A stretch of DNA of 64,000 nucleotides. Origin: a virus. Its lineage: Duplodnaviria > Heunggongvirae > Uroviricota > Caudoviricetes. The notes beneath the pieces were generated by a model. It ran no database searches and was not told the DNA's origin. It saw only the letters and a program-made list of their open reading frames with translations. The stretch is taken from the IMG/VR virus record IMGVR_UViG_3300009983_000002. One strand, given 5' to 3'. The translations under genes were made by a program, and so were the position numbers. Of this stretch, positions 11,381-64,000 are shown piece after piece (within the stretch, counting starts at the first letter, position 1; the number at the start of each line of letters is the position of its first letter).

Positions 11381-12070
11381 TTATCCGTTCGGGGCATAGA
11401 ACATCCGGTAGAAATGATCGAGGAAGAATTGCTTCGCTTGGCGCGGAAGCATCGGCGTGAAGTTCGGATCAATCTCTTCGATCTTCTTGATCGCTTCGGG
11501 CTTTTGCTTCCACGAAGAGAGAATGTCCGGGTGTGCGTGTAGTGCGTAGCCCTCCGCGTAGAGCAAGCGACGGTCGGCGCGTTTGACAACGTCGTCGATC
11601 AGTTGCGAGCGTTCCACGTTGTATTTGCCGACGATGCAGCGTTCAACACCATTCTCCATTTCGATGAAGTCAGGCATGTGGCGCTTGATGGGAGTGACGA
11701 GATCGCCGATCACGCTCTCCGGCGTGTCGTGCATAAGGCCCCACGGCTCTGCCGGTGCGTATTCGAGTTTGGACTCCCAGCCGACGTAGACGCTATGCTG
11801 CGCCACGCTGTAGAAGATGTCGTCGCGAAGGTGGCCGTTGAACCGAACTTGCTTGCTCAGTGAGTTCGCAATGTGCTCGATATGAAACTCTTCGGGGCGT
11901 GGATTGAACGGGTGGACGTTGCCCATCCCCGTCGTCATATACGCCTCTTCTTTGGTGGCCCCGGTGTTCGCCGTGTAGGCGACCCCCGAGCCCGGGTCCA
12001 CGAAGCCGCCGGGACGGACGACCGCGTTAACGAGTTTCATTAAGCCTAACATGGAAGCGGAGAACATCAC
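11381..12070 (-). CDS. HD-domain 5'-deoxynucleotidase (YfbR-like)
   Basis: HSVYV...LMHDTPESVIGDLVTPIK parallels E. coli YfbR MYHDASEVLTGDLPTPVK. H...HD...D metal-ligand pattern. Confidence 0.65.
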   Translation of the reverse strand: MMFSASMLGLMKLVNAVVRPGGFVDPGSGVAYTANTGATKEEAYMTTGMGNVHPFNPRPEEFHIEHIANSLSKQVRFNGHLRDDIFYSVAQHSVYVGWESKLEYAPAEPWGLMHDTPESVIGDLVTPIKRHMPDFIEMENGVERCIVGKYNVERSQLIDDVVKRADRRLLYAEGYALHAHPDILSSWKQKPEAIKKIEEIDPNFTPMLPRQAKQFFLDHFYRMFYAPNG

Positions 12071-13689
12071 GAATCGGCTGGCTTGTCAAGCGTCTTCGCT
12101 ATATTCTCCATCCGCTCCAGGAGCTTCACAACCATTTGGGCGTCGCTAGACCCTTCGACCACTAGGTGTTGCGATACGCATTCATTCTTCTGGCCGATGC
12201 GCCAAATCCGGTCTTCCGCTTGTTCGACATCGCGGGGGACCCAAGACAGTTCGAAGAAGTTGACGAACCGAGCGGCGGTCAGCGTCCACCCCACGCCCAT
12301 CGCTCCGATGTTGCCGAGGATCACGCGACACGTCTCGTCCTCTTGAAACGCATCGACATACTCTTGCCGCCGTGAGTTGGGTGTTCCCCCGGTGATGACG
12401 CGGGGGTTCCACTTCTTGAGCAACGCCGCCGCCTTCTCGATGACTTCGGTGTGGACGGCGAAGATCACAAGCTTCTCACCGGCTTTGAGCAGCGACTCCG
12501 CGTGCTCGATGCACATGGGAAGCTTCGCCAAAGCGAGTTCGACGCGGGCCTTTGAGATGGCTTCGAATGCGATCTTCTCGTCGAAGTTATTGAGTTGGTC
12601 GGCAGCCTCTTCGTAGCTGAGCCCCATGAGATGCCCGTATTTGGCCTCGATGGCGGCTTCCAGGCTTTCCCACGTCCATTCTTCCTCTGGGGTGATGGAG
12701 ATGCCTGCCGTGCCCTCATAGTGCGCCAGCGCCTTCTCAAACGCCGTCATCTCGGCTTCGTTCTTTTTCAAGAGACCGGCGCGGGGAAGGGGAATGATTT
12801 GGCGACGCTTATCCGGCAAGTCTTTCAAGACTTCGCGTTTGTTGCGGCGGACCATGAACGTCGCACGCATCCGCTGTTGGAGTTCGTCGGTGTTTGATGC
12901 GCCCGTGGTGTCGAGTCCGAACCCGTTGTGCTTGGCATCGCAGTAGCGGCGGGCGAACGTGATCCAGTTGGCCCCGAGCCCCTTGGGATCGAGTTGACGG
13001 CAGAATTCCCAAAGGTCTTGCGTCTCCTTTGGCTCTGGGGTCCCCGTGAGGAAGATACGGAATTTCGATGGCGGGCGGAGAATGCGCTTCGCAACGATCC
13101 CCTTCTTTTTGTTGGCGCGTTGGTTGTGGCCCCAGCAATACTTCGAGCGTTCGGCTTTGATGTTGCAAATGTAGTCGGCTTCGTCGAAGACCGTGAGGTC
13201 CCATTGCCGTGCTTGGATTTGCGTGTAGAAGCGTTTCAGGAGTTCGTAATTGATGATCACGATGTCGGTGTCGGGCCAATAGTCCGTCACCTTCTCCAGC
13301 ACCTTGTAGCGGGGCTTCCCCTTGTTCTTGCCGGTCTTGAAGACGCCGACTTGCTCGCGGACAATCTCTGTGCCGCTGGCGATGCCCCAAGTGAGGTCGG
13401 CGGTCAGCCAGCGATCAATCTCGCGGCTCCAGTTGATCTTCAGGAACGCCGGGCACACGATCAGCACCTTCGAGATGCGTTCGTCGGCATTGATGCGGAG
13501 GATGGCCTGGATCGTCTTACCCAACCCAGGTGGGTCGGCGATCAATGTGTCTGGGGTGTAGAGCGAGTATTCGGCCCCCGCGACTTGGTAGCCGTAGGGC
13601 GTCTTACCCGGCGGGGTCGGAATCTCCAGCGAGCTTGTCGCCGCGCAAGAGAGCGCCAACCTCTGCTGCCGTGTAAGTGCGACTTGCAT
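12067..13689 (-). CDS. SNF2-family helicase/ATPase
   Basis: DPPGLGKT (motif I), DEADYI (DEAH-box variant), C-terminal helicase domain QEDETCRVILGNIGAMGVGWTLTAA...QAEDRIWRIGQ. Start uncertain (overlaps next gene by 86 nt at ATG). Confidence 0.8.
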   Translation of the reverse strand: MQVALTRQQRLALSCAATSSLEIPTPPGKTPYGYQVAGAEYSLYTPDTLIADPPGLGKTIQAILRINADERISKVLIVCPAFLKINWSREIDRWLTADLTWGIASGTEIVREQVGVFKTGKNKGKPRYKVLEKVTDYWPDTDIVIINYELLKRFYTQIQARQWDLTVFDEADYICNIKAERSKYCWGHNQRANKKKGIVAKRILRPPSKFRIFLTGTPEPKETQDLWEFCRQLDPKGLGANWITFARRYCDAKHNGFGLDTTGASNTDELQQRMRATFMVRRNKREVLKDLPDKRRQIIPLPRAGLLKKNEAEMTAFEKALAHYEGTAGISITPEEEWTWESLEAAIEAKYGHLMGLSYEEAADQLNNFDEKIAFEAISKARVELALAKLPMCIEHAESLLKAGEKLVIFAVHTEVIEKAAALLKKWNPRVITGGTPNSRRQEYVDAFQEDETCRVILGNIGAMGVGWTLTAARFVNFFELSWVPRDVEQAEDRIWRIGQKNECVSQHLVVEGSSDAQMVVKLLERMENIAKTLDKPADS

Positions 13690-19736: not shown

Positions 19737-20359
19737 TCTACGCGACTTCGATGCCGCTCCGGCGGCGCCGGGCTCGACGCAAACCCTCACGGCCACGCGA
19801 TAGCCAGAAGCGTAAGGTTTACGCTGCGGAGAGCGTGCTGAAGGGGAAGATGCCGCTGGCCGACATCGACGCTGCGGCCAAACTCGTCGGCAAGCTCTTG
19901 AACGCTGCGGTCTTCAAGCATCGCTACGATCTCCGGCTTGAACACTCTCCGGTTCACGTTGGCTTGACGCGCCGCGATAGCGGCCACTCCTGGGGCTCGG
20001 TGAAGGGCATCAGGCTGCATCCCGAATGGGGCCTAGACGGCTACATCGTCTGCCACGAGATGGCGCACGTCGTGGCCCTCCGCATCTACGGGCGCGAGAA
20101 CATCGCAGCCCACGGGTGGCAGTGGGCCGAAATCTATCTGATCCTCGTCCTCGCGGGGATGGGTCGCGCCGCCCACGACGAATTGAAGGCGAGCTTCAAG
20201 GCCGCAGGCATCCGGTTTACCAAACCCCGGCAGGGCCGCGTGCTCACCCAGGATCAGCGGAAAGCGCTGGCCGAAAGGCTCGAAGCGGCACGGAAGATGC
20301 GTATTGTCGGCAGCGGAGAAAACCGCTTGACAGGCGCTACGGCTATGGTAGAGTCCTGA
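19733..20359 (+). CDS. putative zinc metallopeptidase (HExxH)
   Basis: 208 aa; YIVCHEMAHVVAL HExxH motif. Basic N-terminus. Exact start (GTG 19733 or ATG 19751) uncertain. Confidence 0.45.
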   Translation: MIYATSMPLRRRRARRKPSRPRDSQKRKVYAAESVLKGKMPLADIDAAAKLVGKLLNAAVFKHRYDLRLEHSPVHVGLTRRDSGHSWGSVKGIRLHPEWGLDGYIVCHEMAHVVALRIYGRENIAAHGWQWAEIYLILVLAGMGRAAHDELKASFKAAGIRFTKPRQGRVLTQDQRKALAERLEAARKMRIVGSGENRLTGATAMVES

Positions 20360-20376
20360 CATCGAAAGGAGACAAC

Positions 20377-20688
20377 ATGAACACCCGTCAAAAGAACATT
20401 CGCGATCTCATTAACTCTGCGAGAGGCCGCTTCGCCTCCGTCGAGTTCGTGAAGAAGGATGGCACTGTGCGCGTTCTGCAAGTCCAACCGGCTGCCGCGA
20501 AGTTTCACGTCAAGGGCGACAAGGCCAGCGCCGCCGCCCAGCAGGCGACGAAGACCCGCAAGGAAAACAATCCTAACCATCTAGCGGTTTGGGATGTCGT
20601 CGATCAGTGCTTCAAGACCGTCGATCTCGACACCGTTTTCGCGGTGACGGTTGACAAGACGCGCTATTCGGTGTCTGCTCGGGGCTGA
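20377..20688 (+). CDS. hypothetical protein
   Basis: 103 aa; real start is ATG inside track ORF 20026..20688, preceded by CATCGAAAGGAGACAAC (strong SD). Confidence 0.55.
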   Translation: MNTRQKNIRDLINSARGRFASVEFVKKDGTVRVLQVQPAAAKFHVKGDKASAAAQQATKTRKENNPNHLAVWDVVDQCFKTVDLDTVFAVTVDKTRYSVSARG

Positions 20689-32935: not shown

Positions 32936-33028
32936 TACGGCTGCCGCACCTGCGTTGGGTGTCATAAAATAGTGCTTGACTTCGTGGCCCGGGACTGGCA
33001 TAACCAGGGCATCGAAGGAGATTTGGAA
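32936..33028 (+). promoter_or_regulatory. promoter/leader region with conserved elements
   Basis: CACCTGCGTTGGGTGTCATAAAAT, then TTGACT, then 25 nt, then GGGCATCGAAGGAGATTTG immediately before ATG 33029. The same leader occurs at 55358-55376 on the minus strand. Confidence 0.5.
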
Positions 33029-34573
33029 ATGACCGTCACGTTGAGCATCCAGCAGGCAGCCGCCATTGATTGGGCGGAAAACGGCGAAGGTAACGCCGTG
33101 GTCGAAGCCGTCGCTGGCGCGGGTAAGACCTTCACGCTGGTTGAAATCCTGGAGAGACTGAGCCGTAAGGGCCTGACCACGGCGATGGTCGCCTACAACA
33201 AGTCGATCACCGTCGAAATCAAAGAGCGCACGGACGCCCGTGGCCTCGACACCGAAGTCGGCACGGCGCACAGCTTCGGCTTCAAGGGCGTGCAACGCGC
33301 TCTGGGCTTCCCGCAAGTGGAAGCCAAGAAGAACCGCGACATCATCCAGAAGCTTGCGATCCCCGGCTGGTATGCCGAGGTCGTGGACAAGCTCGTCAGC
33401 CATGCGAAGAACGCTGGCATCGGCATCGCCCGCCTTGGCGGCGACATCGACGACAACGCGAAGTGGATCGAAATCTTCGACCGCCACGATCTGATCGCGG
33501 CCCTGCCCGAAGAATTCCGCTACGGCGTGAACGCGATGGAAATCGCGATCAACGACGCGAAGCGCGTGCTCCGCAAGTCGAACGAAATCATCCGCGACGT
33601 GATCGACTTCGACGATATGTGCTACCTGCCGCTGCTGCTCGACATCCCGATGCCGCAATACGACTTCGTCCTTCTCGACGAAGCCCAGGACACCAACGAG
33701 ACGCGCCGTGCGCTCGTCGCGAAGATGGTGAAGCCTACTGGCCGCCTCGTGGCCGTTGGCGACCCCCACCAAGCCATCTATGGCTTCACCGGCGCCGACA
33801 ACGACTCTTTGGATCGCATCAAGCGCGACTTCAACGCCGTGACGCTGCCGCTGACCGTCACCTATCGCTGCCCGAAGGCCGTCGTCGCCGTCGCTCAGCA
33901 GTGGGTGTCGCACATTCAAGCGCACGAAAGCGCGCCGGAAGGCGAATACGACGCCGTCAGCTACGAAGACTTCATGGCGATGGACTTGGTCAAGACCGAC
34001 GCCATCCTCTGCCGCAAGACCGCGCCGCTGATCAAACTCGCGTATGCCTTGATCCGTCGCGGCACGCCGTGCAAGGTCGAAGGTCGCAACATCGGCAACG
34101 GCTTGCTGAAGATCATCCGCAAGTGGAAGAAGGCGAAGACGATCTCGGCTCTGCTCGACAAGGTTCGCGAGTGGGGTGATCGCGAGACCAAGAAGGCGCA
34201 GGCCGTGAAGGCCGAAGCCCGCATCGCCGCCATCGAAGACCTCGTGGAGTGCATCTACGAACTCGCCGCTCCGTTCTCGGGCCGCGACCCCGTCGCCCTG
34301 CTCGAAGAGCGCGTCAACGTCATGTTCGGCGACGACGTGACGGCGGCTGGCCTGATCACGCTGGCGACGATCCACCGCTCGAAGGGCCGCGAATGGAAGC
34401 GCGTCTTCTGGCTTGGCCGTGAAGCTTGGCAGCCGTCGAAGATGGCGAAGCAACAATGGCAGCTTGATCAGGAAATCAACCTGATGTATGTTGCCGCCAC
34501 TCGTGCGAAGGAAACGCTGATCGAAGTCAGCGCTCCGCCGGAGAACGAGAAGCCGAAACAGGAGCGCTTCTGA
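33029..34573 (+). CDS. UvrD/PcrA-like SF1 DNA helicase
   Basis: Start at ATG following the conserved leader (track ORF 32972 begins earlier at a GTG inside the promoter). GAGKTFTLV (Ia), DEAQDT (II), VGDPHQAIYGFTGA (III), TIHRSKGREW (VI). Confidence 0.8.
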   Translation: MTVTLSIQQAAAIDWAENGEGNAVVEAVAGAGKTFTLVEILERLSRKGLTTAMVAYNKSITVEIKERTDARGLDTEVGTAHSFGFKGVQRALGFPQVEAKKNRDIIQKLAIPGWYAEVVDKLVSHAKNAGIGIARLGGDIDDNAKWIEIFDRHDLIAALPEEFRYGVNAMEIAINDAKRVLRKSNEIIRDVIDFDDMCYLPLLLDIPMPQYDFVLLDEAQDTNETRRALVAKMVKPTGRLVAVGDPHQAIYGFTGADNDSLDRIKRDFNAVTLPLTVTYRCPKAVVAVAQQWVSHIQAHESAPEGEYDAVSYEDFMAMDLVKTDAILCRKTAPLIKLAYALIRRGTPCKVEGRNIGNGLLKIIRKWKKAKTISALLDKVREWGDRETKKAQAVKAEARIAAIEDLVECIYELAAPFSGRDPVALLEERVNVMFGDDVTAAGLITLATIHRSKGREWKRVFWLGREAWQPSKMAKQQWQLDQEINLMYVAATRAKETLIEVSAPPENEKPKQERF

Positions 34574-45315: not shown

Positions 45316-46000
45316 GGCGTGACCCCGCGTAGGCGTTGATCCCGTGGCGCTTGAGGACCGCGACGAAAGCGGCGGCGCCAGCTTCTTTGATGTCAACACG
45401 CTGGCCGACATAGTCGCCGGGGTTCCAGAATTCCCAGCCCACGTCCCAGGCGCGTTCGCCGAAGGGGCGGGGATTGACGGCGTTCTTCGCGGCCTTCTTC
45501 AGATAGGCAACGAAGGGGCCCTGGGCTTTCGGAAGACGGGCCCAGGCGAACCCGCAAGCGCCGACGTGATCGACTGGGCCCGGGCCTTTGTGAGCGGCGA
45601 CGATGGCCTGACACGCGGCTTGTGCGGCGGCCTTGGCTTCGACGAAGATCGCAGCGTAGTCGCGATTGTCTTCGACCTTCGGGGCACGCGGCTTCTTCGC
45701 CGCGACGGGCTTGATGGGGAACGCGAACTTGGTCTGCGTGGCGATGTAGTTGTAGACCGGCGCGAGTTCGTCGCCGTAGAGGCCGACCGCGACCTTCCGG
45801 TAGCTCTTGGGGATGCCGATATGGAACGACTTCGACCAACGCGGCTGGATGCGGCTGACCTTCGCGGGCACGCCGTTGGTCTCTCTCACGAAGACACGGT
45901 AAATGCGGCGCGCATAGTTACTCTCGGCGCCGACATCGAGTTCGATGTCGAAGACGGTGAAGCCCGTGATATTCGTGCGCTTGAGTTCAGTAACGTCCAT
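45308..46000 (-). CDS. hypothetical protein
   Basis: 230 aa from Met14 (SD AAGGAG 6 nt upstream). Confidence 0.45.
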   Translation of the reverse strand: MDVTELKRTNITGFTVFDIELDVGAESNYARRIYRVFVRETNGVPAKVSRIQPRWSKSFHIGIPKSYRKVAVGLYGDELAPVYNYIATQTKFAFPIKPVAAKKPRAPKVEDNRDYAAIFVEAKAAAQAACQAIVAAHKGPGPVDHVGACGFAWARLPKAQGPFVAYLKKAAKNAVNPRPFGERAWDVGWEFWNPGDYVGQRVDIKEAGAAAFVAVLKRHGINAYAGSRLD

Positions 46001-46063
46001 GTGGGTCTCCTTTGATGGAGAGACCATAGCACATTCCATACCGGGCGCAAGCGCTTTTCGTGG

Positions 46064-52771: not shown

Positions 52772-53385
52772 GCGGCCTTATTCTTCCTCCGCTGATCTTC
52801 GATGTAAGAGGGGCCGGGGGTGAAACCCGGGTCTACCCACGCGGCCAGCCGCTTGCGTTGTTCGGCAAGGTGGCGCTCACGTTGCTTCTTCTCTTGATCC
52901 AGACGGGCAAGGAAGTCGGCCTTGAAGCTCTCGTAGGTCTTGGTCGCCCAGCCAGCATAGGCCCAGGGAAGGGCGTTGCGGCCCTTCTCATTGATCATCT
53001 CGGTTCGCATGGCGTCGAGATGTTGTTGGTTCTCGACAATCAGGGTCATGGGGATCGTGTGGCGGGTGGCGCGGAATTGTTGGCGCTCTTCCCAAGCGAT
53101 GACGACGTTGGCGTTCGCGTCGTTCGTCACCTGATGGATGCGGGCATAGAGTTCGGTGAGGCGTGTGGAGCAGGCATCGACGTGGGCTTCCAGCACCTTC
53201 TTCGAAACCTCATACGGGAGTTCGCGGGCGCCAAAGCACGATGACGTTTGTTCGCCCCAACCGAAGGGACGCTGATAGCCGTGGTGAGCGATGACCGCGT
53301 TCTTCACGCCGATCTCGCGACCGCAGGCTTGGCAGGTGCCTCTCTTCGTGGCTTCCATAGCCAGAAATTGTTGGCTGTAGGTCAA
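52768..53385 (-). CDS. hypothetical protein (TTG start)
   Basis: 205 aa. CQACGRE...HHGY...C cluster. SD AAAGGAGAG upstream. Confidence 0.4.
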   Translation of the reverse strand: MTYSQQFLAMEATKRGTCQACGREIGVKNAVIAHHGYQRPFGWGEQTSSCFGARELPYEVSKKVLEAHVDACSTRLTELYARIHQVTNDANANVVIAWEERQQFRATRHTIPMTLIVENQQHLDAMRTEMINEKGRNALPWAYAGWATKTYESFKADFLARLDQEKKQRERHLAEQRKRLAAWVDPGFTPGPSYIEDQRRKNKAA

Positions 53386-53533
53386 ACGTCTCTCCTTTCG
53401 ATCTGACGACGCTAGCAGTGTCCTATGCTAATCGCAAGCCACATTCGTAGTTAACACGCATTTTCTTTGGGAACGCCTTTACGTTGAGTGACTTAGAGCT
53501 ACATCCCCATTGGGATTAGAAAAAGGAAATGAG
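53386..53533. promoter_or_regulatory. divergent intergenic region
   Basis: 148-bp non-coding between divergent starts (minus 53385, plus 53534), lower GC. Both flanking genes have strong AGGAG-type SDs. Confidence 0.35.
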
Positions 53534-55096: not shown

Positions 55097-55357
55097 TCAA
55101 AACGGGATGTCTCCATCGGCTTCGTAGCTGATGTATGGGCGTGGGGCGTTCGTCACCATCCGCCCATCTTCCCAGTGGATGCGGATGTCGAGTTCGCCCT
55201 GCACCGGCTCTTCGTAGTCGGCATCGAGCCCAAATCGGCTGTCGTCGTGTTCCCTGCGGAGTTCGGCAACGTAGTCGTAACGCGCGTTCTCTTCGTAGGC
55301 GCGGTTCTCCGCCTCTTGGTCGCCGTCAAACCATTCGCCATCAAGTCTGGTAAGCAT
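55097..55357 (-). CDS. hypothetical acidic protein
   Basis: 86 aa from Met18. Preceded by the conserved leader GGGCATCGAAGGAGATTTG. Confidence 0.45.
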   Translation of the reverse strand: MLTRLDGEWFDGDQEAENRAYEENARYDYVAELRREHDDSRFGLDADYEEPVQGELDIRIHWEDGRMVTNAPRPYISYEADGDIPF

Positions 55358-55420
55358 CTCAAATCTCCTTCGATGCCCCAAGGTGCCACACCTGCGTTGG
55401 GTGGTCAAGCAAATTCGTGC
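55358..55420 (-). promoter_or_regulatory. promoter/leader (minus strand) with conserved elements
   Basis: On the minus strand: TTGACC, then 25 nt containing ACCCAACGCAGGTG, then GGGCATCGAAGGAGATTTG, then ATG. The leader is 19/19 identical to the one at 32996-33014. The -35 overlaps the 3' end of the CoiA-like gene. Confidence 0.45.
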
Positions 55421-57514: not shown

Positions 57515-58053
57515 CCAACGAACGCCAGGAGAAGGCGTGCCAACTCCGGGCCAAGGGCCTGACCCAAGCCGAAGCCTACGAGCTTGCCGGTTATACGCCG
57601 TCGCGTTCGAACGCCTCCGCCCTATTTTCACAGCCGGAGATCAAGCAGCGGCTGGCCGAAATCAAGGAAGAGCGGGAGAAGCTGGAAGCCCGGCGCCGCG
57701 CCGCCCACGAAGAGCTTCAGAAGACCCAAGGCGAACTTGGGATCGAAGACCTTGAGACCGAGAACCACGGCATCACCCGCGAGTGGATCATTCTCCAATA
57801 CAAGGAGGTCATCAAGAACGCTCAGCAGGAGGGCAAACACGCCGCAGCGGCGTCGGCGCTCCGCGAGGTCACGAAGCTTTTGGGGCTCGACAAACCACCG
57901 CCGGGCGACCCCAACAAGGCCGGAGCCCCGCAAGGCCCGGCACAACCCAAGCGTTCAACGTCGGGGCTCATGGATGCCCTGACCGAAGAGGCGGACGAAG
58001 AAGTCGCCCAAGAGGAAGCTGCCGAAGATGGCGATCATCCTACCACGGCCTGA
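57502..58053 (+). CDS. terminase small subunit
   Basis: 183 aa; N-terminal HTH QLRAKGLTQAEAYELAGYTP typical of TerS. Acidic C-terminus. Immediately upstream of TerL with 26-nt overlap. Confidence 0.6.
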   Translation: MPVLANERQEKACQLRAKGLTQAEAYELAGYTPSRSNASALFSQPEIKQRLAEIKEEREKLEARRRAAHEELQKTQGELGIEDLETENHGITREWIILQYKEVIKNAQQEGKHAAAASALREVTKLLGLDKPPPGDPNKAGAPQGPAQPKRSTSGLMDALTEEADEEVAQEEAAEDGDHPTTA

Positions 58054-59695
58054 GCGCGACCGTTATCGTAAAGCGATAAAGCGGGCCGAAGGCTATCTGG
58101 TCAAAATCGAAGACGCGATCCGCCGGGGGACCCCTCTCGGCGAGGACATCCGGCCCCATATCGAGCGGCTGACGCAGACCATTGACCCACATCAGGCCCA
58201 TCGGAGCCTCGAAGACGATCTGATCAGGATCAAAGTCGAGTATGAGCAAAAGCTGCTCGACGCCGCAGAGACTGACTTCTCTGCATTCTGCGAATACATG
58301 ACGCCGGAGGAGCCTCCGGCTGCTCACCATTATTTCCTCTGCGATAATCTTGAGGCCATGTCTCGGGGCGACATCCTGCGCCTCATGATTTCTATGCCGC
58401 CAGGACATGCCAAATCGACGTATTCCTCGCACAAATTCCCCGCATGGTGGATGGGCAAGAATTCACGCAAGCGCTTCATCCAGGCAGGCCACACCCAAAA
58501 CTTCTGCGAGAACCAACTCGGCAAGCCCGTGCGGAACATCGTCAAAGACGAGCGCTATGGGAAAGTTTTCCCAGACATCAGGATCAGTTCTGAATCTAAC
58601 GCGGCGGGCTTCTGGGCCCTCGTGACCGGCGGCAGCTATCTCACCAAAGGCGTCGGCCAAGGCATCGCGGGCTTCCGGGCCCACTGCGCCGGGGTCGATG
58701 ACCCGTTCGCCAGCCGCGAAGACGCTGAATCCGAGGTCATTCGCGAGAAGACTTTCAACTGGTTTAGCGCCGACTTCACAACGCGATTGCTCCCCCGGTG
58801 CCCCATGTATATTGTGGCAACACGGTGGCACCCCGACGACCTGTGCGCCAGGGTCGAGCAACTGAACAAAGACGGCAAGGGCTACCCCTGGACGATCATC
58901 AACCTCCCGGCCATCGCTGGGGCAAATGACCCTATGGGGCGTGCGCCGGGCGAAGCACTCTGGCCCGAGCTTTTTGATGTAGAATACTTGCTACATTTGA
59001 AGGCCACTCTCCCACCACGCGACTGGAATTCACTATACCAGGGGACCCCGACAAATGCTGAAGGGGGTATGGTTAATGGCGACAGCGTTCATCGTTACCA
59101 GGAGCGCCCGGTTAACCTTATCGACGAATATGGCCGGATTACGAAGTGGAACGTCAAGCGCCTGACGATCTCGGCGGACACGGCCAGCAAAGATCAGCAG
59201 CGGCACGACCCGACCGCGATTACCGTCTGGATCGAGACCGTTGATCGGCGCCATTACCTGATCGACGTGGTGGTCAAGCGCGTTCAGTTTAACGACCTCG
59301 TAACCTTAATCGAGGACACCTGCCGCCGCTGGCAGTTGGAGTATCCGGGCACCCCCACGGCCATCCTCGTCGAAGACAAGGGCTCGGGGACCCAGTATAT
59401 TCAAGCCCGGCAGCACCTTGCACCTGCGGTTGTGATCCCCATCGCCGTGACCAACGTCTCGAAGGAGTTCCGCTTCGACGGCGTGAGCCCGATGTTCACC
59501 ATCGGCGAAGTCCTGCTGCCTGAGCGGGCGATCTGGCTGCCCGACTACGAGAAGGAAATCTTCGAGTTCGACGGCAAGGGCACGGCCACCCACGACGACC
59601 AAGTCGATAGCACCAGCCAATACCTGTCCTGGGCCCGTCAAGGCCGTGGCCGGGGCTCGAAGAAGCTGAAGGGCACGGGCTACTCTCGCCGGTAA
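58028..59695 (+). CDS. terminase large subunit
   Basis: 555 aa; ATPase Walker A-like MPPGHAKST, Walker B/coupling YIVATRWHPDDL. C-terminal RNaseH-like nuclease with ISADTA...D and ATHDDQVDS acidic residues. Confidence 0.8.
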   Translation: MAIILPRPERDRYRKAIKRAEGYLVKIEDAIRRGTPLGEDIRPHIERLTQTIDPHQAHRSLEDDLIRIKVEYEQKLLDAAETDFSAFCEYMTPEEPPAAHHYFLCDNLEAMSRGDILRLMISMPPGHAKSTYSSHKFPAWWMGKNSRKRFIQAGHTQNFCENQLGKPVRNIVKDERYGKVFPDIRISSESNAAGFWALVTGGSYLTKGVGQGIAGFRAHCAGVDDPFASREDAESEVIREKTFNWFSADFTTRLLPRCPMYIVATRWHPDDLCARVEQLNKDGKGYPWTIINLPAIAGANDPMGRAPGEALWPELFDVEYLLHLKATLPPRDWNSLYQGTPTNAEGGMVNGDSVHRYQERPVNLIDEYGRITKWNVKRLTISADTASKDQQRHDPTAITVWIETVDRRHYLIDVVVKRVQFNDLVTLIEDTCRRWQLEYPGTPTAILVEDKGSGTQYIQARQHLAPAVVIPIAVTNVSKEFRFDGVSPMFTIGEVLLPERAIWLPDYEKEIFEFDGKGTATHDDQVDSTSQYLSWARQGRGRGSKKLKGTGYSRR

Positions 59696-59754: not shown

Positions 59755-59865
59755 CCGGGGACCCTGCGCTTTTTATGACAGGGACCCTAGCGTTTTATGA
59801 CAGGGCAGGGACCCTCGGGTTTTCGACCTGGGGCCGGTCGGGGACCCTGGGCTTTTCGGCATGGG
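59755..59865. repeat. four tandem imperfect about 24-bp repeats: GGGACCCT-N3-5-TTTT-N7
   Basis: GGGGACCCTGCGCTTTTTATGACA / GGGACCCTAGCGTTTTATGACA / GGGCAGGGACCCTCGGGTTTTCGACCT / GGGGACCCTGGGCTTTTCGGCATG. Confidence 0.7.
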
Positions 59866-60469
59866 CCGGGGCCTAAATCCTGGGCGGGAGGGGCCAGATA
59901 TGGCCCATTAAGGTTCAAAAACGGGGCTAATGGGCCATTTATGAGCCATTAGGCATGACCCAAAACAGGGTCAATTTCTGCGACTGACCCAATTCAGGTT
60001 CACACCCAATTTCACCCGATTGGCCGGTTTCAGCAGCCGGTGAAAGCCCGCCGTCCAGTGAAAATCGGCGCCGTCATCGTTTCTCGACCCAACTCACCTG
60101 CGACCCTCGATTTTGGACGCTCGTCATCGCTTTTGGACACCAAATGCTTGTGATGGCCCAGCAGAATAGGCTTGAAATGGCCCGGCCACGTCCTGCAAAT
60201 TTGCACGGAGCGGTGAAGGTTTTGCGCAGCGGCGATCTCGCGGTTTTCTCCAACGAGGCGACCTTAATGCGTCATATATGATGCCTTAAGTCGGTTAATG
60301 TCCTTTATATGCACCATAAACGACGTTTGTGACCTCAGTCACACTCGCCTACATGGTTAATTTGGGCTGCATAGCTCGACGTGGAGGCCTACGACCGTTT
60401 CTGACGTATGATCATGAGCGGCCTGACGCTTATCTGACGATTACCCCGCTGCCCGTCGCGATCTCGGGC

Positions 60470-60600
60470 TCGGCCAACTCTGAATCAATCGAATTTTGGC
60501 TCTGACTCTTTTCGATTTTGGCACTCTGAATCAATCGCTTTTTGGCGCGCGCCCACTCTGAATCTTTTCGTTTTTGGCACGAATCGATTCGATTTTGGTT
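60470..60600. repeat. 4-5 tandem about 26-bp repeats: CTCTGAATC-N6-ATTTTTGGC
   Basis: CTCTGAATCAATCGAATTTTGGC / TCTGACTCTTTTCGATTTTGGCA / CTCTGAATCAATCGCTTTTTGGCG / CTCTGAATCTTTTCGTTTTTGGCA / CGAATCGATTCGATTTTGG. Confidence 0.7.
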
Positions 60601-60609
60601 AATGTGAAT

Positions 60610-60900
60610 TTGCGTTAAGGTTAACCCAGGTTAAGGTTAACAGCCGTTAAGGTTAACGCGGCATTAAGGTTAACGCCCGGCGGCGGCCCGTTAAGGTTAA
60701 CGCCACACGCGGTTCCGTTAAGGTTGAAAATTAAGGTTAACCCGGGAGGCCGCCGCGTTAAGGTTAACGCAGGCCGGGAACGTGTTAAGGTTAACCGGGC
60801 GGGGCGCCGCGTTAACCCTAACCCAACGCAGGGCCGCGTTAACCCTAATGGATCACGCCGCCGCGTTAACCATGATGGGCGGCTGTGCCAAAATGAGGCG
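60610..60900. repeat. iteron array: 11 copies of TTAAGGTTAAC, then 3 copies of GCGTTAACC(C/A)T(A/G)A, with irregular GC-rich spacers
   Basis: Direct reading of 60613-60890. The core GTTAAC is palindromic. Track ORFs 60724..61011 and 60782..61129 are artefacts of this repeat. Confidence 0.8.
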
Positions 60901-61034
60901 GAGCATTGCGCCCCGCCTCCCTTTGAGCCCGTTAGCGAATTCGAGCAACCTAGCGGCCTTGGCTTGCGCCTCCCGCTCGGCGAGGGCCTTAGCGAGGGCG
61001 AGCCCCGCTAAGATTCCCTCTTTCGCTTGCGCGT

Positions 61035-61286
61035 TCACGCTGTCACCGTTCCGGCTGGCGCGTGCGCCAGCGTGGTCTCGGCGAAAAGAGTCAGGGCTTG
61101 CGCCGCCTTCTCATATTCGCCGCGCTTGAACTTCAAGCCCGTGATGCTTTCCGCAGTCTTAAGCATCGCGGTGGGCGTCCAAGCCCGATTGGGTTTCATG
61201 CCGGTTTTGGCATAAAGACGCAGCCCCGACGCCAGCGCCGTAGCGCGGAAAATCGAGACTCCAGCAGGTCCGTTAAACGTGGTCAT
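61035..61286 (-). CDS. small protein with hairpin-TIR (83 aa)
   Basis: Start at the Met encoded by ...ATCGGAAGGAGAAACCGATATG (translated SEGETDM inside track ORF 61035..61355). Confidence 0.45.
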   Translation of the reverse strand: MTTFNGPAGVSIFRATALASGLRLYAKTGMKPNRAWTPTAMLKTAESITGLKFKRGEYEKAAQALTLFAETTLAHAPAGTVTA

Positions 61287-61405
61287 ATCGGTTTCTCCTT
61301 CCGATGCGCCGACAATAGCACGCGCCGCGCTGGCGTCAAGCGAAAAAGTTGGCAACGCTTTGTTAAGACCTTGGCTCTATAGTCGGCGCATCAAAGGAGT
61401 CGGCT

Positions 61406-61603
61406 ATGCCTGATTTAATTCGCTGGCGCTACTACATGCGGGAAGCGCAAAAGTCCGTTGACATCGCGAGCGCCGCGAAGGCGCGAGGCGATAAGCCGGG
61501 CGCCCGCCGCTGGCTAGAGCAAGCATCAAGCGAGCTTGACCAAGCGGCCTTTTGGCGCTCTAATGAAGCGCCGCAAATCGAGCCGCAAGGATTCATGTTA
61601 TGA
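61406..61603 (+). CDS. small protein (65 aa)
   Basis: SD AAAGGAGTCGGCT upstream. Confidence 0.4.
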   Translation: MPDLIRWRYYMREAQKSVDIASAAKARGDKPGARRWLEQASSELDQAAFWRSNEAPQIEPQGFML

Positions 61604-61815
61604 ACGCTTTCGCAAAGCGCCCTATTGAGTTTCCGCCGCGCCCCATGACGCAAGGCCGCTTTAGAATCGAAACGATTCTATTGGCGCGAGCAATGGCCGC
61701 GAGCATGAAGCGAGACGGCGCGAAAGGCGCCGCGCTTATGCGCCGCGTCGCATGGGACAAGTTACGCGACGCGCAAGCCTGGAAACGCGGGCTTGACATC
61801 GCGGGCGCCGCCTGA
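61600..61815 (+). CDS. small basic protein (71 aa)
   Basis: ATGA coupling. Confidence 0.4.
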   Translation: MNAFAKRPIEFPPRPMTQGRFRIETILLARAMAASMKRDGAKGAALMRRVAWDKLRDAQAWKRGLDIAGAA

Positions 61816-61846
61816 TAGTCTCGCTAAATCGGAAGGAGAAACCGAT

Positions 61847-62185
61847 ATGCGAATCGCTCAAATCGTAATGCCTAAGCAAGGCAACGCGGGCGAAGACTTG
61901 CAAGCCGTGCATTACAGCTTGCGCCGCGAGCTTGCCAAAAGATTCGGCGGATATACCGCGCTAGAGTCGCATGGCGGATGGATTGACGAGTCCGGGAAGC
62001 TTTACGATGAGCCCGGAATCACCTATCAATGCGCCTGCGATGATTGCGAAGCAAACCGCGAAGCGCTGCGCCAGATTGCAAAAATTCATGGCCGCGCCGC
62101 CGCTCAATTAGCGGTTTTCGTAACGTATCCGTGCGGAACCGCTGAAATTATTGACATCTCGCATCACATGGAGAAACGCGCATGA
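61847..62185 (+). CDS. small protein with hairpin-TIR (112 aa)
   Basis: ATG preceded by ATCGGAAGGAGAAACCGAT. CxCDDCE cysteines. Confidence 0.45.
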   Translation: MRIAQIVMPKQGNAGEDLQAVHYSLRRELAKRFGGYTALESHGGWIDESGKLYDEPGITYQCACDDCEANREALRQIAKIHGRAAAQLAVFVTYPCGTAEIIDISHHMEKRA

Positions 62186-62463
62186 CCACGCAACCACGCT
62201 GCGAAACTTCCAAGCTAACCCAACGCGCGGCGCACGCTAAAGACGCTGGGAAGCTTGCGCCGTTGCAGCATCGGCATTTTGCGACAATCGCCACAATCAT
62301 CAAAGCGCTCGGCGCCGATGATTTTAGCAACGTGCGCGACCATTGCGTCAGCCTCGCCGACGCTGAAAATCTCCGCGCCGACATCGCGGAACACTTCGCG
62401 GCGAAACTCGCGAAGACTAACGATAAATTCGACCGCGCCCGCTTTCTTGCCGCTTGCAAATAG
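62182..62463 (+). CDS. small protein (93 aa)
   Basis: ATGA coupling. Confidence 0.4.
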   Translation: MTTQPRCETSKLTQRAAHAKDAGKLAPLQHRHFATIATIIKALGADDFSNVRDHCVSLADAENLRADIAEHFAAKLAKTNDKFDRARFLAACK

Positions 62464-62504
62464 CGGCAAAGCCTGCTAGGCTCACTAAATCGAAGGAGTC
62501 GCAA

Positions 62505-62735
62505 ATGCCTAGACCATTGTCAGAGATTGCACGCGAGATTCGCGGCGACTGGAAAAACGTCAACTTCGCGGCCAAGCCCTACCTTGACGCGATGGGCGAG
62601 CTAAACGCGATTACCGACTCTTACTATCAGGACTCGGCTAAATCCGTTGTGCTCTATTTCCTGAGCAACGCGAGCGCATGGCGCGGCGAAAACGCCAAGC
62701 GCATCAAAGCTGAGCTTAAGGCGCTGGCGAAGTAG
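62505..62735 (+). CDS. small protein (76 aa)
   Basis: ATG preceded by AAATCGAAGGAGTCGCAA. Confidence 0.45.
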   Translation: MPRPLSEIAREIRGDWKNVNFAAKPYLDAMGELNAITDSYYQDSAKSVVLYFLSNASAWRGENAKRIKAELKALAK

Positions 62736-62753
62736 GAGTCGAACATGCCGAAC

Positions 62754-62914
62754 CTTGACGATATTATCGCCTGGGAAAATGGCGAGCTTGACGCGGAAGC
62801 GGAAGCCGAATTTTTTCAAGGCATGATCAACACGGGAGTCGTGTGGACTCTTCAAGGCATGTATGGCCGCCGCGCCTTCGCCTTGATCGAAGCGGGAGTC
62901 TGCACTCGTGCTTA
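62754..62914 (+). CDS. small protein (about 53 aa)
   Basis: SD AGGAGTCGAAC. Confidence 0.3.
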
Positions 62915-63144
62915 AGGCCTTCTCAACCTTTTGCGCGCTAGCCGCGCTGGCGTTGTGTCTTTTCGTGATAGACCGCGCCAGCGCGCCACGCTTCGCCCTT
63001 GTGAGCTATTACGCAAGCGGCGGGGCGCTGGAAAGCGAGACGCTGGACTCTGGCCTAAGCGCCAGCGATTGCGCCTTTGCCCTGGAGCAAGGCCGAGTCG
63101 TCGCGGCATCGGCTGAAATTCTGCTAACGTGCGAGCGCGACTAA
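62908..63144 (+). CDS. small secreted/membrane protein (78 aa, GTG start)
   Basis: N-terminal hydrophobic segment AFSTFCALAALALCLFVI. Confidence 0.35.
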   Translation: MLKAFSTFCALAALALCLFVIDRASAPRFALVSYYASGGALESETLDSGLSASDCAFALEQGRVVAASAEILLTCERD

Positions 63145-63281
63145 TGCGAGGCCTTCCCGCAATCCTGCTAGTTTTGTTGGCGGGCTTGCTGGCGCCGCTT
63201 TTCTTGGGGCGCGATTGAAAAAAGCGCTTGCAATGCGCCGCGCTTGTGCTATTCTCCTTTGCATCGGAAGGAGAAACCGAT

Positions 63282-63518
63282 ATGAACGGCTATCAAATCC
63301 AAGCGAAACTTGACGAAGCGCTGCAAGCGGGCCGCGTTGCCTCGCGCGCTCATTACATTGTCAAGGCCGCGATTCGTCACGCTCAAATGACTGGCCGCCC
63401 CGTTCGCGATGTCGCGGACCTTGAACGCGCGATTAACGAATATCGCACAAGCGGCAAGAAAATTTATCCCCATTTCAGCGAAGATTTTGCTTGCGCGCGT
63501 CGCGAGCTTGTGCAATAG
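63282..63518 (+). CDS. small protein with hairpin-TIR (78 aa)
   Basis: ATG preceded by ATCGGAAGGAGAAACCGAT. Confidence 0.45.
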   Translation: MNGYQIQAKLDEALQAGRVASRAHYIVKAAIRHAQMTGRPVRDVADLERAINEYRTSGKKIYPHFSEDFACARRELVQ

Positions 63519-63544
63519 TCTTTTCATCGGAAGGAGAAACCGAC

Positions 63545-63697
63545 ATGAGACCGATCCACGAAGTTATCCGCGCCAGCGCCCAGACCGCTCAAACCGAGCG
63601 CGCCAACTGGGAAGGCCGCACGGCGCAAGCCAAGTTTGAAGGCGCTGCCGCCGCTGATCGTCAAGCGGTCGCCTTTGGCAAGCGCAAGGCTCGCTAA
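63545..63697 (+). CDS. small protein with hairpin-TIR (50 aa)
   Basis: ATG preceded by ATCGGAAGGAGAAACCGAC. Confidence 0.35.
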   Translation: MRPIHEVIRASAQTAQTERANWEGRTAQAKFEGAAAADRQAVAFGKRKAR

Positions 63698-63876
63698 TGT
63701 ATCGCGTCATTCATAACCAATTCGCGAGCGCGTTAAAAGACGCCTCGCGGCCTTGGCTGGTAATCAGCCCCTACCGCGTAGCAGGCCGCTACGCCACGCA
63801 AGCCCAAGCGAACCGCCGGGCCCGCGATTTGAACAAGGAGTCAGGTCATGGGGAAGTCACGGCGCGGCGATGAGGG
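63697..63876 (+). CDS. small protein (59 aa)
   Basis: TAATG coupling. Confidence 0.3.
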
Positions 63877-64000
63877 ACGCGAAAAGGCCGCCAAGCTAGC
63901 CGCACGCGAGCTAGAGCGGCGCGAGAAACAAAAGCAACGCGAGCCCCGCGACTAACTCCCGCGCTAGGCTCAACTCCCGGGAAGGCCGCGCCGCAAGGTG

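What the first reader, a model, noticed from the sequence alone, without database searches (positions are those of the whole stretch)
61000..64000. Early-gene-like cluster of about 11 tiny ORFs with a conserved hairpin translation-initiation element (SD displayed in a stem-loop)
After the repeat region GC falls, and every gene is 35-112 codons.

Four of them are preceded by the same 22-nt element ATCGGAAGGAGAAACCGATATG: the minus-strand gene at 61286 and the plus-strand genes at 61847, 63282 and 63545. ATCGG and CCGAT form a 5-bp stem whose 9-nt loop AAGGAGAAA is the Shine-Dalgarno sequence. A presented-SD hairpin of this kind is known from a few T4 genes.

Because the element precedes the ATG in frame, it is read as SEGETDM in the six-frame track.

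A second family AAGGAGTCG-N3-5-ATG precedes four more genes (61406, 62505, 62754, 63847).

This looks like a dedicated, co-regulated host-takeover module, possibly under translational control by an RNA-binding protein or a temperature- or structure-sensitive hairpin.
Basis: seen in the sequence. Interest (0 to 1): 0.7.

Follow-up and report, generated by a model that had tools for sequence, protein, structure and literature searches.

The report
Repeated phage promoter and leader cassette
The 22-base sequence repeated before several tiny phage genes is real, but it is a local variant of the short leader that follows all of this phage's host-type promoters. The hairpin it can form is weak, is absent from related phages, and has not been shown to matter.

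Summary
ATCGGAAGGAGAAACCGA(T/C)ATG occurs four times in 61-64 kb, where none is expected by chance. A fifth, slightly different copy lies just past the window end.

The element is not a free-standing translational device. Each copy starts 6-7 nt after the -10 hexamer of a sigma-70-like promoter, so it is the predicted whole 5' UTR, from +1 to AUG. Twelve such cassettes (gcTTGnnn-N16/17-TAnnnT-N6-ATCGRAAGGAG) are spread over 73.5 kb of this phage, some before 230-514 aa genes. Only the five in the island of small genes between the terminase and portal genes carry the CCGA right arm that makes the stem.

Related phages have the same promoters and the same leader core before orthologous genes (GTCGAAARGGAGTC, or CACAACGGGAG in more distant ones). 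None of them has the stem.

The hairpin is weak (-4.1 kcal/mol), shows no independent compensatory change, and dominates the predicted fold in only 2 of 5 contexts.

Best reading: a standard phage promoter, short leader and strong Shine-Dalgarno (SD) cassette, close in behaviour to the T4-type PeSL cassettes. This lineage has a derived hairpin at the 5' end of the transcript, of unproven and probably accessory function.

"Host takeover" and dedicated translational control are unsupported. Interest is low to moderate.

The parts
61284..61305 (-). Leader copy 1 (family F1), ATCGGAAGGAGAAACCGATATG. It is the predicted 5' UTR plus start codon of the 83-aa gene.
   Evidence: Exact match. Coordinates checked.
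61312..61339 (-). Promoter-like site for copy 1: TTGACG-N16-(TGc)TATTGT. It ends 6 nt before the leader's first base.
   Evidence: Found by the consensus scan. Coordinates and spacing checked.
61793..61821 (+). Promoter-like site: TTGACA-N17-TAGTCT, 6 nt before leader copy 2.
61828..61849 (+). Leader copy 2 (F1), before the 112-aa gene 61847-62185.
   Evidence: Stem pair probability is 0.81-0.95 in 60-nt context.
63228..63255 (+). Promoter-like site: TTGCAA-N16-(TGc)TATTCT, 7 nt before leader copy 3.
63263..63284 (+). Leader copy 3 (F1), before the 78-aa gene 63282-63518.
   Evidence: Stem pair probability is only about 0.25 in context.
63491..63519 (+). Promoter-like site: TTGCGC-N17-(TGc)AATAGT, 6 nt before leader copy 4.
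63526..63547 (+). Leader copy 4 (F1 variant …CCGACATG, with an A·C mismatch at the closing pair), before the 50-aa gene 63545-63697.
61378..61408 (+). Cassette without a stem: TATAGT-N6-ATCAAAGGAGTCGGCTATG, before the 65-aa gene. It is divergent from copy 1.
62454..62507 (+). Cassette without a stable stem: TTGCAA-N17-TAGGCT-N6-ATCGAAGGAGTCGCAAATG, before the 76-aa gene (phrog_13953).
20326..20379 (+). Same cassette far from the island: TTGACA…TAGAGT-N6-ATCGAAAGGAGACAACATG, before a 103-aa ORF.
32975..33031 (+). Same cassette before a 514-aa ORF: TTGACT…-ATCGAAGGAGATTTGGAAATG.
45998..46050 (-). Same cassette before a 230-aa ORF: TTGCGC-N16-TATGGT-N6-ATCAAAGGAGACCCACATG.
53383..53437 (-). Same cassette with a TTG start: TTGCGA-N17-TAGCGT-N6-ATCGAAAGGAGAGACGTTTG.
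55355..55409 (-). Same cassette before an 86-aa ORF: TTGACC…-ATCGAAGGAGATTTGAGATG.
60853..63955 (.). Island of 13 conserved small genes (35-112 aa), two on the minus strand and eleven on the plus strand, plus a possible 24-aa ORF. It lies between TerL (58028-59695) and the portal gene, which is beyond the window.
   Evidence: ORFs. Orthologues, with alignment from residue 1 for 9 of the 13. Synteny with TerL and the portal. No known functions.

Best explanation
**What it is.** The 22-mer is the whole predicted 5' untranslated leader, plus the start codon, of a standard phage expression cassette. It is not a separate translational device.

**The cassette.** The phage carries at least 12 copies of gcTTGnnn-N16/17-(TGn)TAnnnT-N6-A(+1)TCG(G/A)A(A)GGAG-N5-9-ATG. 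Host sigma-70-type RNA polymerase is inferred to start at the A. That gives a 16-19 nt purine-rich leader whose main feature is a strong SD at ideal spacing.

**Inferred function.** This design should give high, coordinated expression of each transcription unit. Placing a ribosome-binding site within a few nucleotides of the 5' end also tends to protect an mRNA.

**The hairpin variant.** Five cassettes in the island of small genes between the TerL and portal genes carry a derived spacer, AAACCGAT, together with G at +5. This spacer is complementary to the first five transcript bases. These mRNAs can therefore form a 4-5 bp hairpin at the very 5' end with the SD left open in the loop.

**Most likely role of the hairpin.** It is an accessory, lineage-specific feature. 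It may give extra 5'-end protection against RppH/RNase E-type decay without hiding the SD, or it may be a neutral variant spread by recombination between cassettes.

**Shown versus inferred.**
- Shown: the repeats, the promoter association and its fixed spacing, the genome-wide distribution, and the absence of the stem in relatives.
- Inferred: the transcription start, the timing of expression, and any effect on stability or translation.
For: **Promoter coupling.**
- All 12 leader copies have a -35/-10-like pair upstream.
- The strict cassette pattern is found 9 times against 0.01 in simulated sequence. That promoter pattern precedes only 0.3% of all positions.
- An nAnnnT hexamer ends exactly 6 nt before the leader's first base in 9 of 12 window cassettes. 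The same holds for 17 of 17 cassettes in relatives L126, L127 and L137.

**Distribution.** Cassettes also precede genes of 103, 514, 230 and 86 aa at 20, 33, 46, 53 and 55 kb.

**Relatives.**
- Orthologous genes in L050/L126, L127 and L137 (TerL 85% identical) carry promoter + GTCGAAARGGAGTC. This is the same core apart from G instead of A at +1.
- L129 and L130 carry CACAACGGGAG.
- Microcystis phage Mwe-JY26 has its own repeated promoter-leader before the orthologue of the 61847 gene.

**Stem energies.** Folding from the predicted +1, only the five F1 copies reach -2.9 kcal/mol or below. The other 7 window leaders and all 11 relatives' leaders are at 0 to -1.8.

**Cassette behaviour.** Between L126 and L127 a gene module is replaced. 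Homology ends at the SD of one gene and resumes at the first base of the next leader.

**Literature.**
- Repeated sigma-70 promoter plus SD cassettes before ORFans in plastic regions of phage genomes are known (PMC2839356).
- 5'-terminal stem-loops and 5'-proximal SDs are described as mRNA stabilisers in work cited by the review PMC3997798.
Against: - No transcription start has been mapped. The promoter assignment rests on consensus and spacing only, and the simple scan tool itself called just one of them.
- Three cassettes have poor -10 or -35 hexamers (33011, 55374, 61390).
- The identical 8-nt spacer at five loci, whose promoters and coding regions differ, is not fully explained by common descent. 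It needs either recombination within very short homology or selection for that exact sequence. This leaves room for a specific reader of the sequence.
- In the five F1 copies, all three substitutions avoid the 4-bp stem core, and the fifth copy shifts register so that 5 bp are kept. That is what a selected stem would show, although it is not statistically significant.
Confidence: 0.68

Rival explanations
1. The hairpin is a selected RNA device that displays the SD in a loop. It places these genes under dedicated translational control, by an RNA-binding protein or by structure or temperature sensing.
For: - A 5-bp inverted repeat flanks the SD in five copies.
- G at +5 occurs only in the copies that carry the CCGA arm.
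- The three substitutions among the copies spare the UCGG/CCGA core. The fifth copy swaps an outer pair for an inner A-U pair.
- The stem is better than right-flank shuffles, with P about 0.01-0.08 per copy.
Against: - The five copies are one sequence family, so they count as one event.
- There are no independent compensatory changes.
- The stem is absent from 7 of the 12 leaders in the same phage and from every leader in four related lineages, including the orthologous genes.
- It is weak, at -4.1 kcal/mol with z -1.6.
- In 60-nt context its pair probability is 0.0, 0.25 and 0.25 in three of the five copies.
- The SD is unpaired in the stem, so melting would not switch translation on. This argues against a thermosensor.
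- No RNA-binding protein was identified, and there is no Rfam match.
Confidence: 0.15
2. The inverted repeat ATCGG-N9-CCGAT acts at the DNA level. It would be an operator at +1 to +19 for a dimeric phage repressor that shuts off the island's promoters together.
For: - It is a perfect 5+5 palindrome directly downstream of the predicted start site, a classical operator position.
- It is confined to one island that has a divergent promoter pair and is flanked by arrays of GTTAAGGTTAAC repeats.
- More distant relatives (L129, L130) show palindromes over the -10 region of their cassettes (GCGTAAG…CTTACGC, read).
Against: - The half-sites are 14 bp apart centre to centre, which is unusual for helix-turn-helix dimers.
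- Two of the five copies break the outer base of the palindrome.
- The central 9 bp are fully explained by the SD.
- No DNA-binding domain was found in the island's proteins. The divergently transcribed 83-aa protein is a confident three-helix fold with no match to any solved structure.
- Close relatives lack the palindrome.
Confidence: 0.07
3. The identity of the copies is a neutral by-product of recent duplication or gene conversion among cassettes. The palindrome is then a chance feature of the one sequence that happened to spread.
For: - A random 8-nt spacer gives a stem of at least 5 bp (G-U allowed) around the SD in about 6% of trials, and at least 4 bp in about 30%.
- Recombination at leaders is seen between relatives.
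- Other phages also show homogenised leaders.
Against: - The identity stops sharply at the leader's edges. The promoters and coding regions of the five copies are unrelated to one another, and the promoters still resemble their orthologues in L127. So this was not a recent duplication of whole cassettes.
- Conversion of a 20-nt patch with almost no flanking homology is mechanistically awkward.
Confidence: 0.1

Closest known systems
PeSL (promoter-early stem-loop) cassettes of T4-type phages (Arbiol et al. 2010, PMC2839356; Comeau et al. 2014, PMC4122927)
   Same: - Many copies of a strong sigma-70-like promoter, ending in an SD and a start codon.
- Placed before small genes of unknown function in a plastic part of the genome.
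- Gene modules are exchanged with breakpoints at the cassettes.
   Different: - In PeSLs the stem-loop is a G/C-rich terminator lying upstream of, within or just before the promoter. Here the only recurrent stem lies downstream of the predicted start and encloses the SD.
- Terminator-like sites are not enriched here (6 found, 7.1 expected).
- The phage is not T4-like. Its TerL is nearest to that of Microcystis phage Mwe-JY26 and to DSS3P8-like roseophages.
Split translation-initiation hairpins of T4 genes 38 and 25 (review PMC3014915)
   Same: A small hairpin in a phage translation-initiation region that is proposed to help ribosome binding.
   Different: - In T4 the hairpin lies between the SD and the AUG. 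It shortens a 22-27 nt gap to 5-11 nt, and it is conserved among the T-even phages.
- Here the SD is in the loop, the linear SD-AUG spacing is already 8 nt, and the stem is not conserved.
5'-terminal stem-loop and 5'-proximal SD mRNA stabilisers (ompA and papA leaders; STAB-SD of cryIIIA; cited in review PMC3997798)
   Same: - A stem that starts at the first transcribed base, leaving no unpaired 5' nucleotides.
- A strong SD within about 6 nt of the 5' end.
   Different: - Those elements were shown by experiment to prolong mRNA life. Here both the start site and any stabilising effect are inferred.
- This stem has only 4-5 bp.
- Whether the host relies on RNase E and RppH is unknown.
Stoperators of cluster A mycobacteriophages (L5 gp71 sites; recalled from my own knowledge, not checked here)
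   Same: A short asymmetric sequence repeated a dozen or more times in short intergenic spaces, always in the orientation of transcription.
   Different: - No repressor was identified, and the lifestyle of this phage is unknown.
- More than half of the conserved core here is simply the SD.
- The core is shared between lineages rather than specific to each.
T4 RegB targets (GGAG in early SDs; PMC3014915)
   Same: Early-type transcripts share a GGAG SD that could be used for coordinated shut-off.
   Different: The strong-site consensus GGAGRAYARAA is not matched: the F1 leader reads GGAGAAACCGA. A search for a RegB homologue was not done.

Membership tests
PeSL cassette | Repeated sigma-70-like promoter | tested here: met
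   12 cassettes with -35/-10-like hexamers. The strict pattern occurs 9 times against 0.01 expected. Identified by consensus only, with no expression data.
PeSL cassette | Stable stem-loop acting as a terminator, placed upstream of, within or just before the promoter | tested here: not met
   Terminator-like sites: 6 found against 7.1 ± 2.4 expected in 59.6-64 kb. None recurs at the cassettes. The only recurrent stem lies downstream of +1.
PeSL cassette | SD and start codon at the 3' end; located before ORFans in a plastic region | tested here: met
   AAGGAG 5-9 nt before the start codon in all 12 cassettes. The island ORFs have no known function. However, 3 cassettes precede larger genes.
PeSL cassette | Recombination between cassettes shuffles gene modules | tested here: met
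   In L126 against L127, homology ends at L126 7577 (an SD) and resumes at 7837 (first base of a leader) around a replaced gene. Only one or two such events were seen.
T4 gene 25/38 split-TIR hairpin | The hairpin lies between the SD and the AUG and shortens a long spacing | tested here: not met
   The SD is in the loop and the linear spacing is 8 nt. Definition taken from PMC3014915.
T4 gene 25/38 split-TIR hairpin | The stem is conserved among related phages | tested here: not met
   All 11 leaders tested from close relatives (L126, L127) fold at 0 to -0.7 kcal/mol. The leaders of L129 and L130 also give at most a 1-4 bp stem around the SD.
5'-terminal stem-loop mRNA stabiliser | The stem starts within 0-2 nt of the transcript's 5' end | tested here: inconclusive
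   The -10 hexamer ends 6 nt before the first stem base in 4 of the 5 copies and 7 nt before it in 1. The predicted +1 is therefore the first stem base, but no start site has been mapped.
5'-terminal stem-loop mRNA stabiliser | It prolongs mRNA half-life against 5'-end-dependent decay | not testable with these tools
   This needs half-life measurements in the unknown host.
RNA thermometer (ROSE or fourU type) | The SD or AUG is base-paired and is released on melting | tested here: not met
   AAGGAG is unpaired in the loop and the AUG lies outside the stem.
Curated RNA families (Rfam 15) | A match to any covariance model | tested here: not met
   No relevant hit with E ≤ 1 in 55-64 kb.
Operator or stoperator for a phage repressor | A cognate DNA-binding protein encoded nearby | tested here: inconclusive
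   No DNA-binding domain was found in 10 island proteins. The 83-aa protein has a new three-helix fold with no PDB match. The remaining proteins were not modelled.

The most novel reading that the evidence does not exclude
The exact 19-nt leader, homogenised at five loci with sharp edges at +1 and the AUG, may be read by a phage-encoded factor specific to this lineage. Candidates are an RNA-binding translational repressor, a RegB-like nuclease acting on the hairpin, or a DNA-binding shut-off protein acting on the palindrome. Such a factor would switch the whole island off or on as a unit. The hairpin would then be the recognition handle that separates the island's transcripts from the phage's other seven transcripts, which share the promoter type.
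Probability: 0.1. Interest if true: 0.6.

Novelty: new member of a known kind. Interest (0 to 1): 0.28.

Why it matters
**Practical value.** The result gives an annotation rule for an uncultured group of roughly 100-kb phages. In this group, transcription units can be found by the signature TTGnnn-N16/17-TAnnnT-N6-RTCGAAAGGAG. The island between the terminase and portal genes can be recognised as a plastic region with its own promoters.

**Evolution.** It also offers a small natural experiment. Two closely related lineages have the same promoters and genes, with and without a hairpin at the 5' end of the transcript around the SD. If the hairpin turned out to matter, it would be a compact case of a leader that protects the 5' end while leaving the SD open. 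Such a design would also be useful for building expression cassettes.

**Overall.** As it stands, the finding is an ordinary regulatory repeat, not a new mechanism.

Tried and rejected
- **Search for the core with free outer stem bases.** I scanned IMG/VR for GGAAGGAGAAACCNNNATG. It gave 49 loci, each with one hit, and none had complementary arms. These are generic SDs, not relatives.
- **Nucleotide search of known phages.** A search with the 3.1 kb region gave only a 3% chance-level overlap with Gordonia phages.
- **Terminase search of bacterial genomes** for prophage relatives or host clues found nothing.
- **Relatives found through the 76-aa protein.** The 74 loci came mostly from unrelated phages (GC 23-64%). 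Only two were close relatives.
- **A conserved SD-enclosing hairpin at the 55357 locus.** Its L126 orthologue initially looked similar (-7.7 and -7.9 kcal/mol). I rejected this because most of the 5' arm lies upstream of the predicted start. Folded from +1, the stems are only -1.8 and -0.7 kcal/mol.
- **An apparent compensatory change** (G-C to A-U) between F1 and the ATCGAAGGAGATTTG leaders. I rejected it because those stems are marginal and have a different loop size.
- **Structure of the 83-aa divergent gene product**, modelled to look for a repressor. The model is confident (pLDDT 91) but has no structural match (best E 0.69).
- **Rfam scan:** nothing relevant.
- **Exact-sequence look-up of protein P0001:** not on record.
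- **Literature search for Mwe-JY26:** no papers held.
- **N4-type hairpin promoters and lambda boxB/nut sites.** I considered these from memory and set them aside: the loop is 9 nt and is the SD, there are five copies, and sigma-70-like hexamers lie upstream.


Full report
**1. The observation**

The 22-mer ATCGGAAGGAGAAACCGATATG occurs at 61305-61284 (-), 61828-61849 (+) and 63263-63284 (+). A one-mismatch copy (CCGAC) lies at 63526-63547 (+). None is expected in dinucleotide shuffles, and there is no further copy in the 64 kb window.

Each copy ends in the ATG of an ORF, so the in-frame reading SEGETDM is visible. The isolated element folds as a 5-bp stem with the 9-nt loop AAGGAGAAA at -4.1 kcal/mol (z = -1.6). 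The CCGAC copy keeps 4 bp at -2.9 kcal/mol.

The small ORFs are genuine genes. All 13 have orthologues in related contigs, and for 9 of them the alignment starts at residue 1.

- The 'second family' as written fits two starts. The looser AGGAGTC-N3-6-ATG fits four, against 0.38 expected.
- Two coordinates are off by a few bases.
- The GC 'fall' is about two points.

**2. What the window is**

The window is phage DNA. It encodes a large terminase subunit (58028-59695), rIIA and rIIB homologues, a family A DNA polymerase, a helicase, a primase and an RNA ligase. The terminase is closest to that of Microcystis phage Mwe-JY26 (54%) and to roughly 100-150 kb phages of Roseobacter, Sphingobium and Erythrobacter hosts.

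A public contig, L132, is identical to the window over 10,719 nt and extends it to about 73.5 kb in window coordinates. In it and in the relatives, the small-gene cluster lies between the terminase gene and the portal gene (DUF4055). So the cluster is an island inside the packaging and head region, not a genome-end early region.

None of the ten island proteins tested has a known function. The only family hits are DUF7417 and three PHROGs of unknown function.

**3. The element follows a promoter**

Aligning the upstream regions shows the same layout before every copy: gcTTGnnn, a 16-17 nt variable spacer, often TGn, then TAnnnT, then 6 nt (7 in one case), then ATCGG….

The same layout precedes two island genes whose leaders lack the stem: 61406 (ATCAAAGGAGTCGGCTATG) and 62505 (ATCGAAGGAGTCGCAAATG). 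It also precedes a fifth stem copy just beyond the window, at equivalent position 64212, ATCGGAAGGAGAATCCGAAATG. Five more cassettes lie far from the island, at 20361, 33011, 46016 (-), 53402 (-) and 55374 (-). Their leaders read ATCGAAAGGAGA…, ATCGAAGGAGATTTG… or ATCAAAGGAGA…, and some stand before genes of 230 and 514 aa.

The statistics support a real association:
- The strict cassette pattern occurs 9 times against 0.01 in simulated sequence.
- The promoter part alone precedes only 0.3% of positions.
- An nAnnnT hexamer ends exactly 6 nt before the first leader base in 9 of 12 cassettes here, and in 17 of 17 cassettes in the relatives.

From established knowledge of sigma-70 promoters, the seventh base after the -10 hexamer is the usual start site. 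The conserved leader therefore begins at the predicted +1, and the 22-mer is the whole 5' UTR plus the AUG. This start site is inferred, not mapped.

**4. Relatives**

Three sets of relatives were recovered:
- L050/L125/L126/L128, with TerL 85% identical.
- L127 and L137. L137 comes from a sample in which this phage was also assembled (L133, ERZ27279440).
- L129 and L130/L131, which are more distant.

The island is collinear with L126 at about 71% nucleotide identity.

In L126, L127 and L137 the orthologous genes (starting MTTF…, MPDLIRW…, MRIAQ…, MPRPL…, MNGYQ…, MFARDC…) have the same kind of promoter. Their leader is GTCGAAA(A/G)GGAGTC followed by 3-6 variable bases. The core RTCGAAA(A)GGAG is therefore shared by both lineages and differs only at +1 (A or G). 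What is new in the window's phage is G at +5 and the spacer AAACCGAT at five island promoters. The island's other two promoters keep the ancestral 'GGAGTC' type.

In L129 and L130 the cassette leader is (CA)CAACGGGAG with a variable spacer. Mwe-JY26 and another contig (L142) have their own repeated, longer leaders.

I searched each leader, from the predicted +1, for the best simple hairpin that encloses GGAG:
- The five F1 copies score -2.9 to -5.1 kcal/mol.
- The other seven leaders of the same phage score 0 to -1.8.
- All 11 leaders from the close relatives score 0 to -0.7.

The stem is thus a derived feature of one lineage, not a conserved property of these initiation regions.

**5. Is the stem selected?**

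The five copies form one sequence family, so they count as one origin.

Three substitutions exist among them. Two hit the closing pair and break it (A·C and A·A). One in the loop (A to T) creates a new inner A-U pair, so the fifth copy keeps 5 bp in a shifted register. All three spare the UCGG/CCGA core. With so few events this is not significant; my estimate is P about 0.06-0.17, depending on which positions are taken as otherwise constrained.

Other measures are also weak:
- A random spacer gives a stem of at least 5 bp (G-U allowed) in about 6% of trials.
- Right-flank shuffles give P of 0.01-0.08 per copy.
- In a 60-nt transcript context the stem's pair probabilities are 0.0, 0.81-0.95, about 0.25, about 0.25 and 0.86-0.98 for the five copies. 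In the first copy an alternative fold buries the SD.
- There is no Rfam match.

The hairpin is therefore possible but unproven, and it is weak.

**6. Mechanism**

The best-supported account is a standard expression cassette: a host-type promoter, a 16-19 nt purine-rich leader, and AAGGAG 5-9 nt before the start codon. It serves the phage's transcription units in general and is dense in the island, with seven promoters in 3.3 kb.

In the F1 variant the first five transcript bases can pair with the bases just before the AUG. This gives a hairpin at the very 5' end with the SD left open.

Work cited in the review PMC3997798 reports two relevant effects. A 5'-terminal stem-loop can stabilise mRNA in E. 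coli, and RNase E decay is governed by 5'-terminal base pairing. A strong SD near the 5' end can also stabilise an mRNA (STAB-SD). Extra 5'-end protection without loss of SD access is therefore the most plausible benefit. This is inference.

A DNA-level reading (the palindrome as an operator at +1 to +19) and a dedicated RNA-binding regulator cannot be excluded. One unexplained point keeps them alive: the same 8-nt spacer sits at five loci whose promoters and coding regions differ and still resemble their own orthologues in L127. Either short-patch recombination or selection for the exact sequence is needed to produce that.

The 83-aa protein encoded divergently from the island was modelled with high confidence (pLDDT 91). 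It is a three-helix protein with no structural match, so it offers no clue.

**7. Comparison with known systems**

The closest known system is the PeSL cassette of T4-type phages. PeSLs are repeated sigma-70-like promoters ending in an SD and a start codon. They sit before ORFans in plastic regions and serve as recombination points (PMC2839356; PMC4122927).

The behaviour matches. Between L126 and L127 a gene module is replaced, and homology ends at an SD and resumes at the first base of the next leader. Membership fails on a defining feature, however. PeSL stem-loops are terminators placed in or before the promoter. Here terminator-like sites are not enriched, and the stem lies after the start site.

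In genes 38 and 25 the hairpin lies between the SD and the AUG and shortens a 22-27 nt gap (PMC3014915). The strong-site consensus for the T4 nuclease RegB, GGAGRAYARAA, is not matched.

**8. Verdict**

The repeat is real and functional-looking. It is best described as a lineage-specific variant of an ordinary promoter-leader cassette. It is a new member of a known kind, with a small chance (about 0.1) that the hairpin or palindrome is the handle of a specific regulator. Interest is low to moderate.

Noticed in passing
window 60597-60880; again at L132 10810-10920 (about 64090-64200 in window coordinates); L126 5870-6230 and 9340-9460: There are arrays of at least 10 copies of GTTAAGGTTAAC, followed by the inverted form GTTAACCCTAAC. 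They flank the small-gene island on both sides and are conserved in relatives. They look like iterons or binding sites for an unknown protein, perhaps at an origin or a partition or packaging site.
   Followed up: partly
window 59756-59856 and 60478-60598: Two more repeat sets lie in the 1.2-kb non-coding gap after the terminase gene. One is CAGGGACCCT…TTTT (4 copies). The other is CTCTGAATC…TTTTGGC (4-5 copies, 22-32 nt apart). Relatives carry different repeat units (GTCATGACACG…TTTTGGC) at the same place.
   Followed up: partly
window 60212-60350: A 140-nt non-coding block is 86-90% identical in L126, L127 and L137, while its surroundings are about 71% identical or cannot be aligned. It holds the palindromes GCGTCATATATGAYGC and TGTGAC-N4-GTCACA; in the latter the 4-nt centre varies while the arms do not. 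There is no Rfam match. It could be a protein-binding site or a small RNA.
   Followed up: partly
L126 7577-7837 against L127 7768-8087; also L126 8081-8344 against L127 8331-8625: Gene modules are replaced between two close relatives. For the first module, homology ends at the SD of one gene and resumes at the first base of the next promoter's leader.
   Followed up: partly
window 61035-61286 (-): The 83-aa protein belongs to a widespread family of small phage proteins with 89 clusters in metagenomes. Its predicted structure is confident (pLDDT 91) and has three helices, with no match among solved structures.
   Followed up: yes
L136 (Microcystis phage Mwe-JY26, PP438418) 11800-13600: This cultured distant relative has its own repeat of about 70 nt: TTGACTGCTAGTGC…GCGCTAG.TTGTCTTTACCGGCGCAATCAAGCCCCGGCGGAGACCAGAC-ATG. 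It occurs 3-4 times before small genes next to the terminase gene, including the orthologue of the 61847 gene.
   Followed up: no
L129 9700-12900 and L130 3500-7700: In the more distant relatives the cassette promoters carry an inverted repeat, GCGTAAG-N5-7-CTTACGC, that spans the spacer and the -10 region. It looks like an operator.
   Followed up: no
window 63144-63218 (+): A 24-aa hydrophobic ORF (MRGLPAILLVLLAGLLAPLFLGRD) is conserved at the protein level in L126 (…LLAPFFLGGRD). It is probably a small membrane peptide, and gene callers missed it in some contigs.
   Followed up: no
window 61287-61405: A divergent promoter pair lies in a 119-nt gap. The minus-strand promoter has the hairpin leader. 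The plus-strand promoter has a good -10 (TATAGT) but no clear -35. The layout resembles a regulatory switch region.
   Followed up: no
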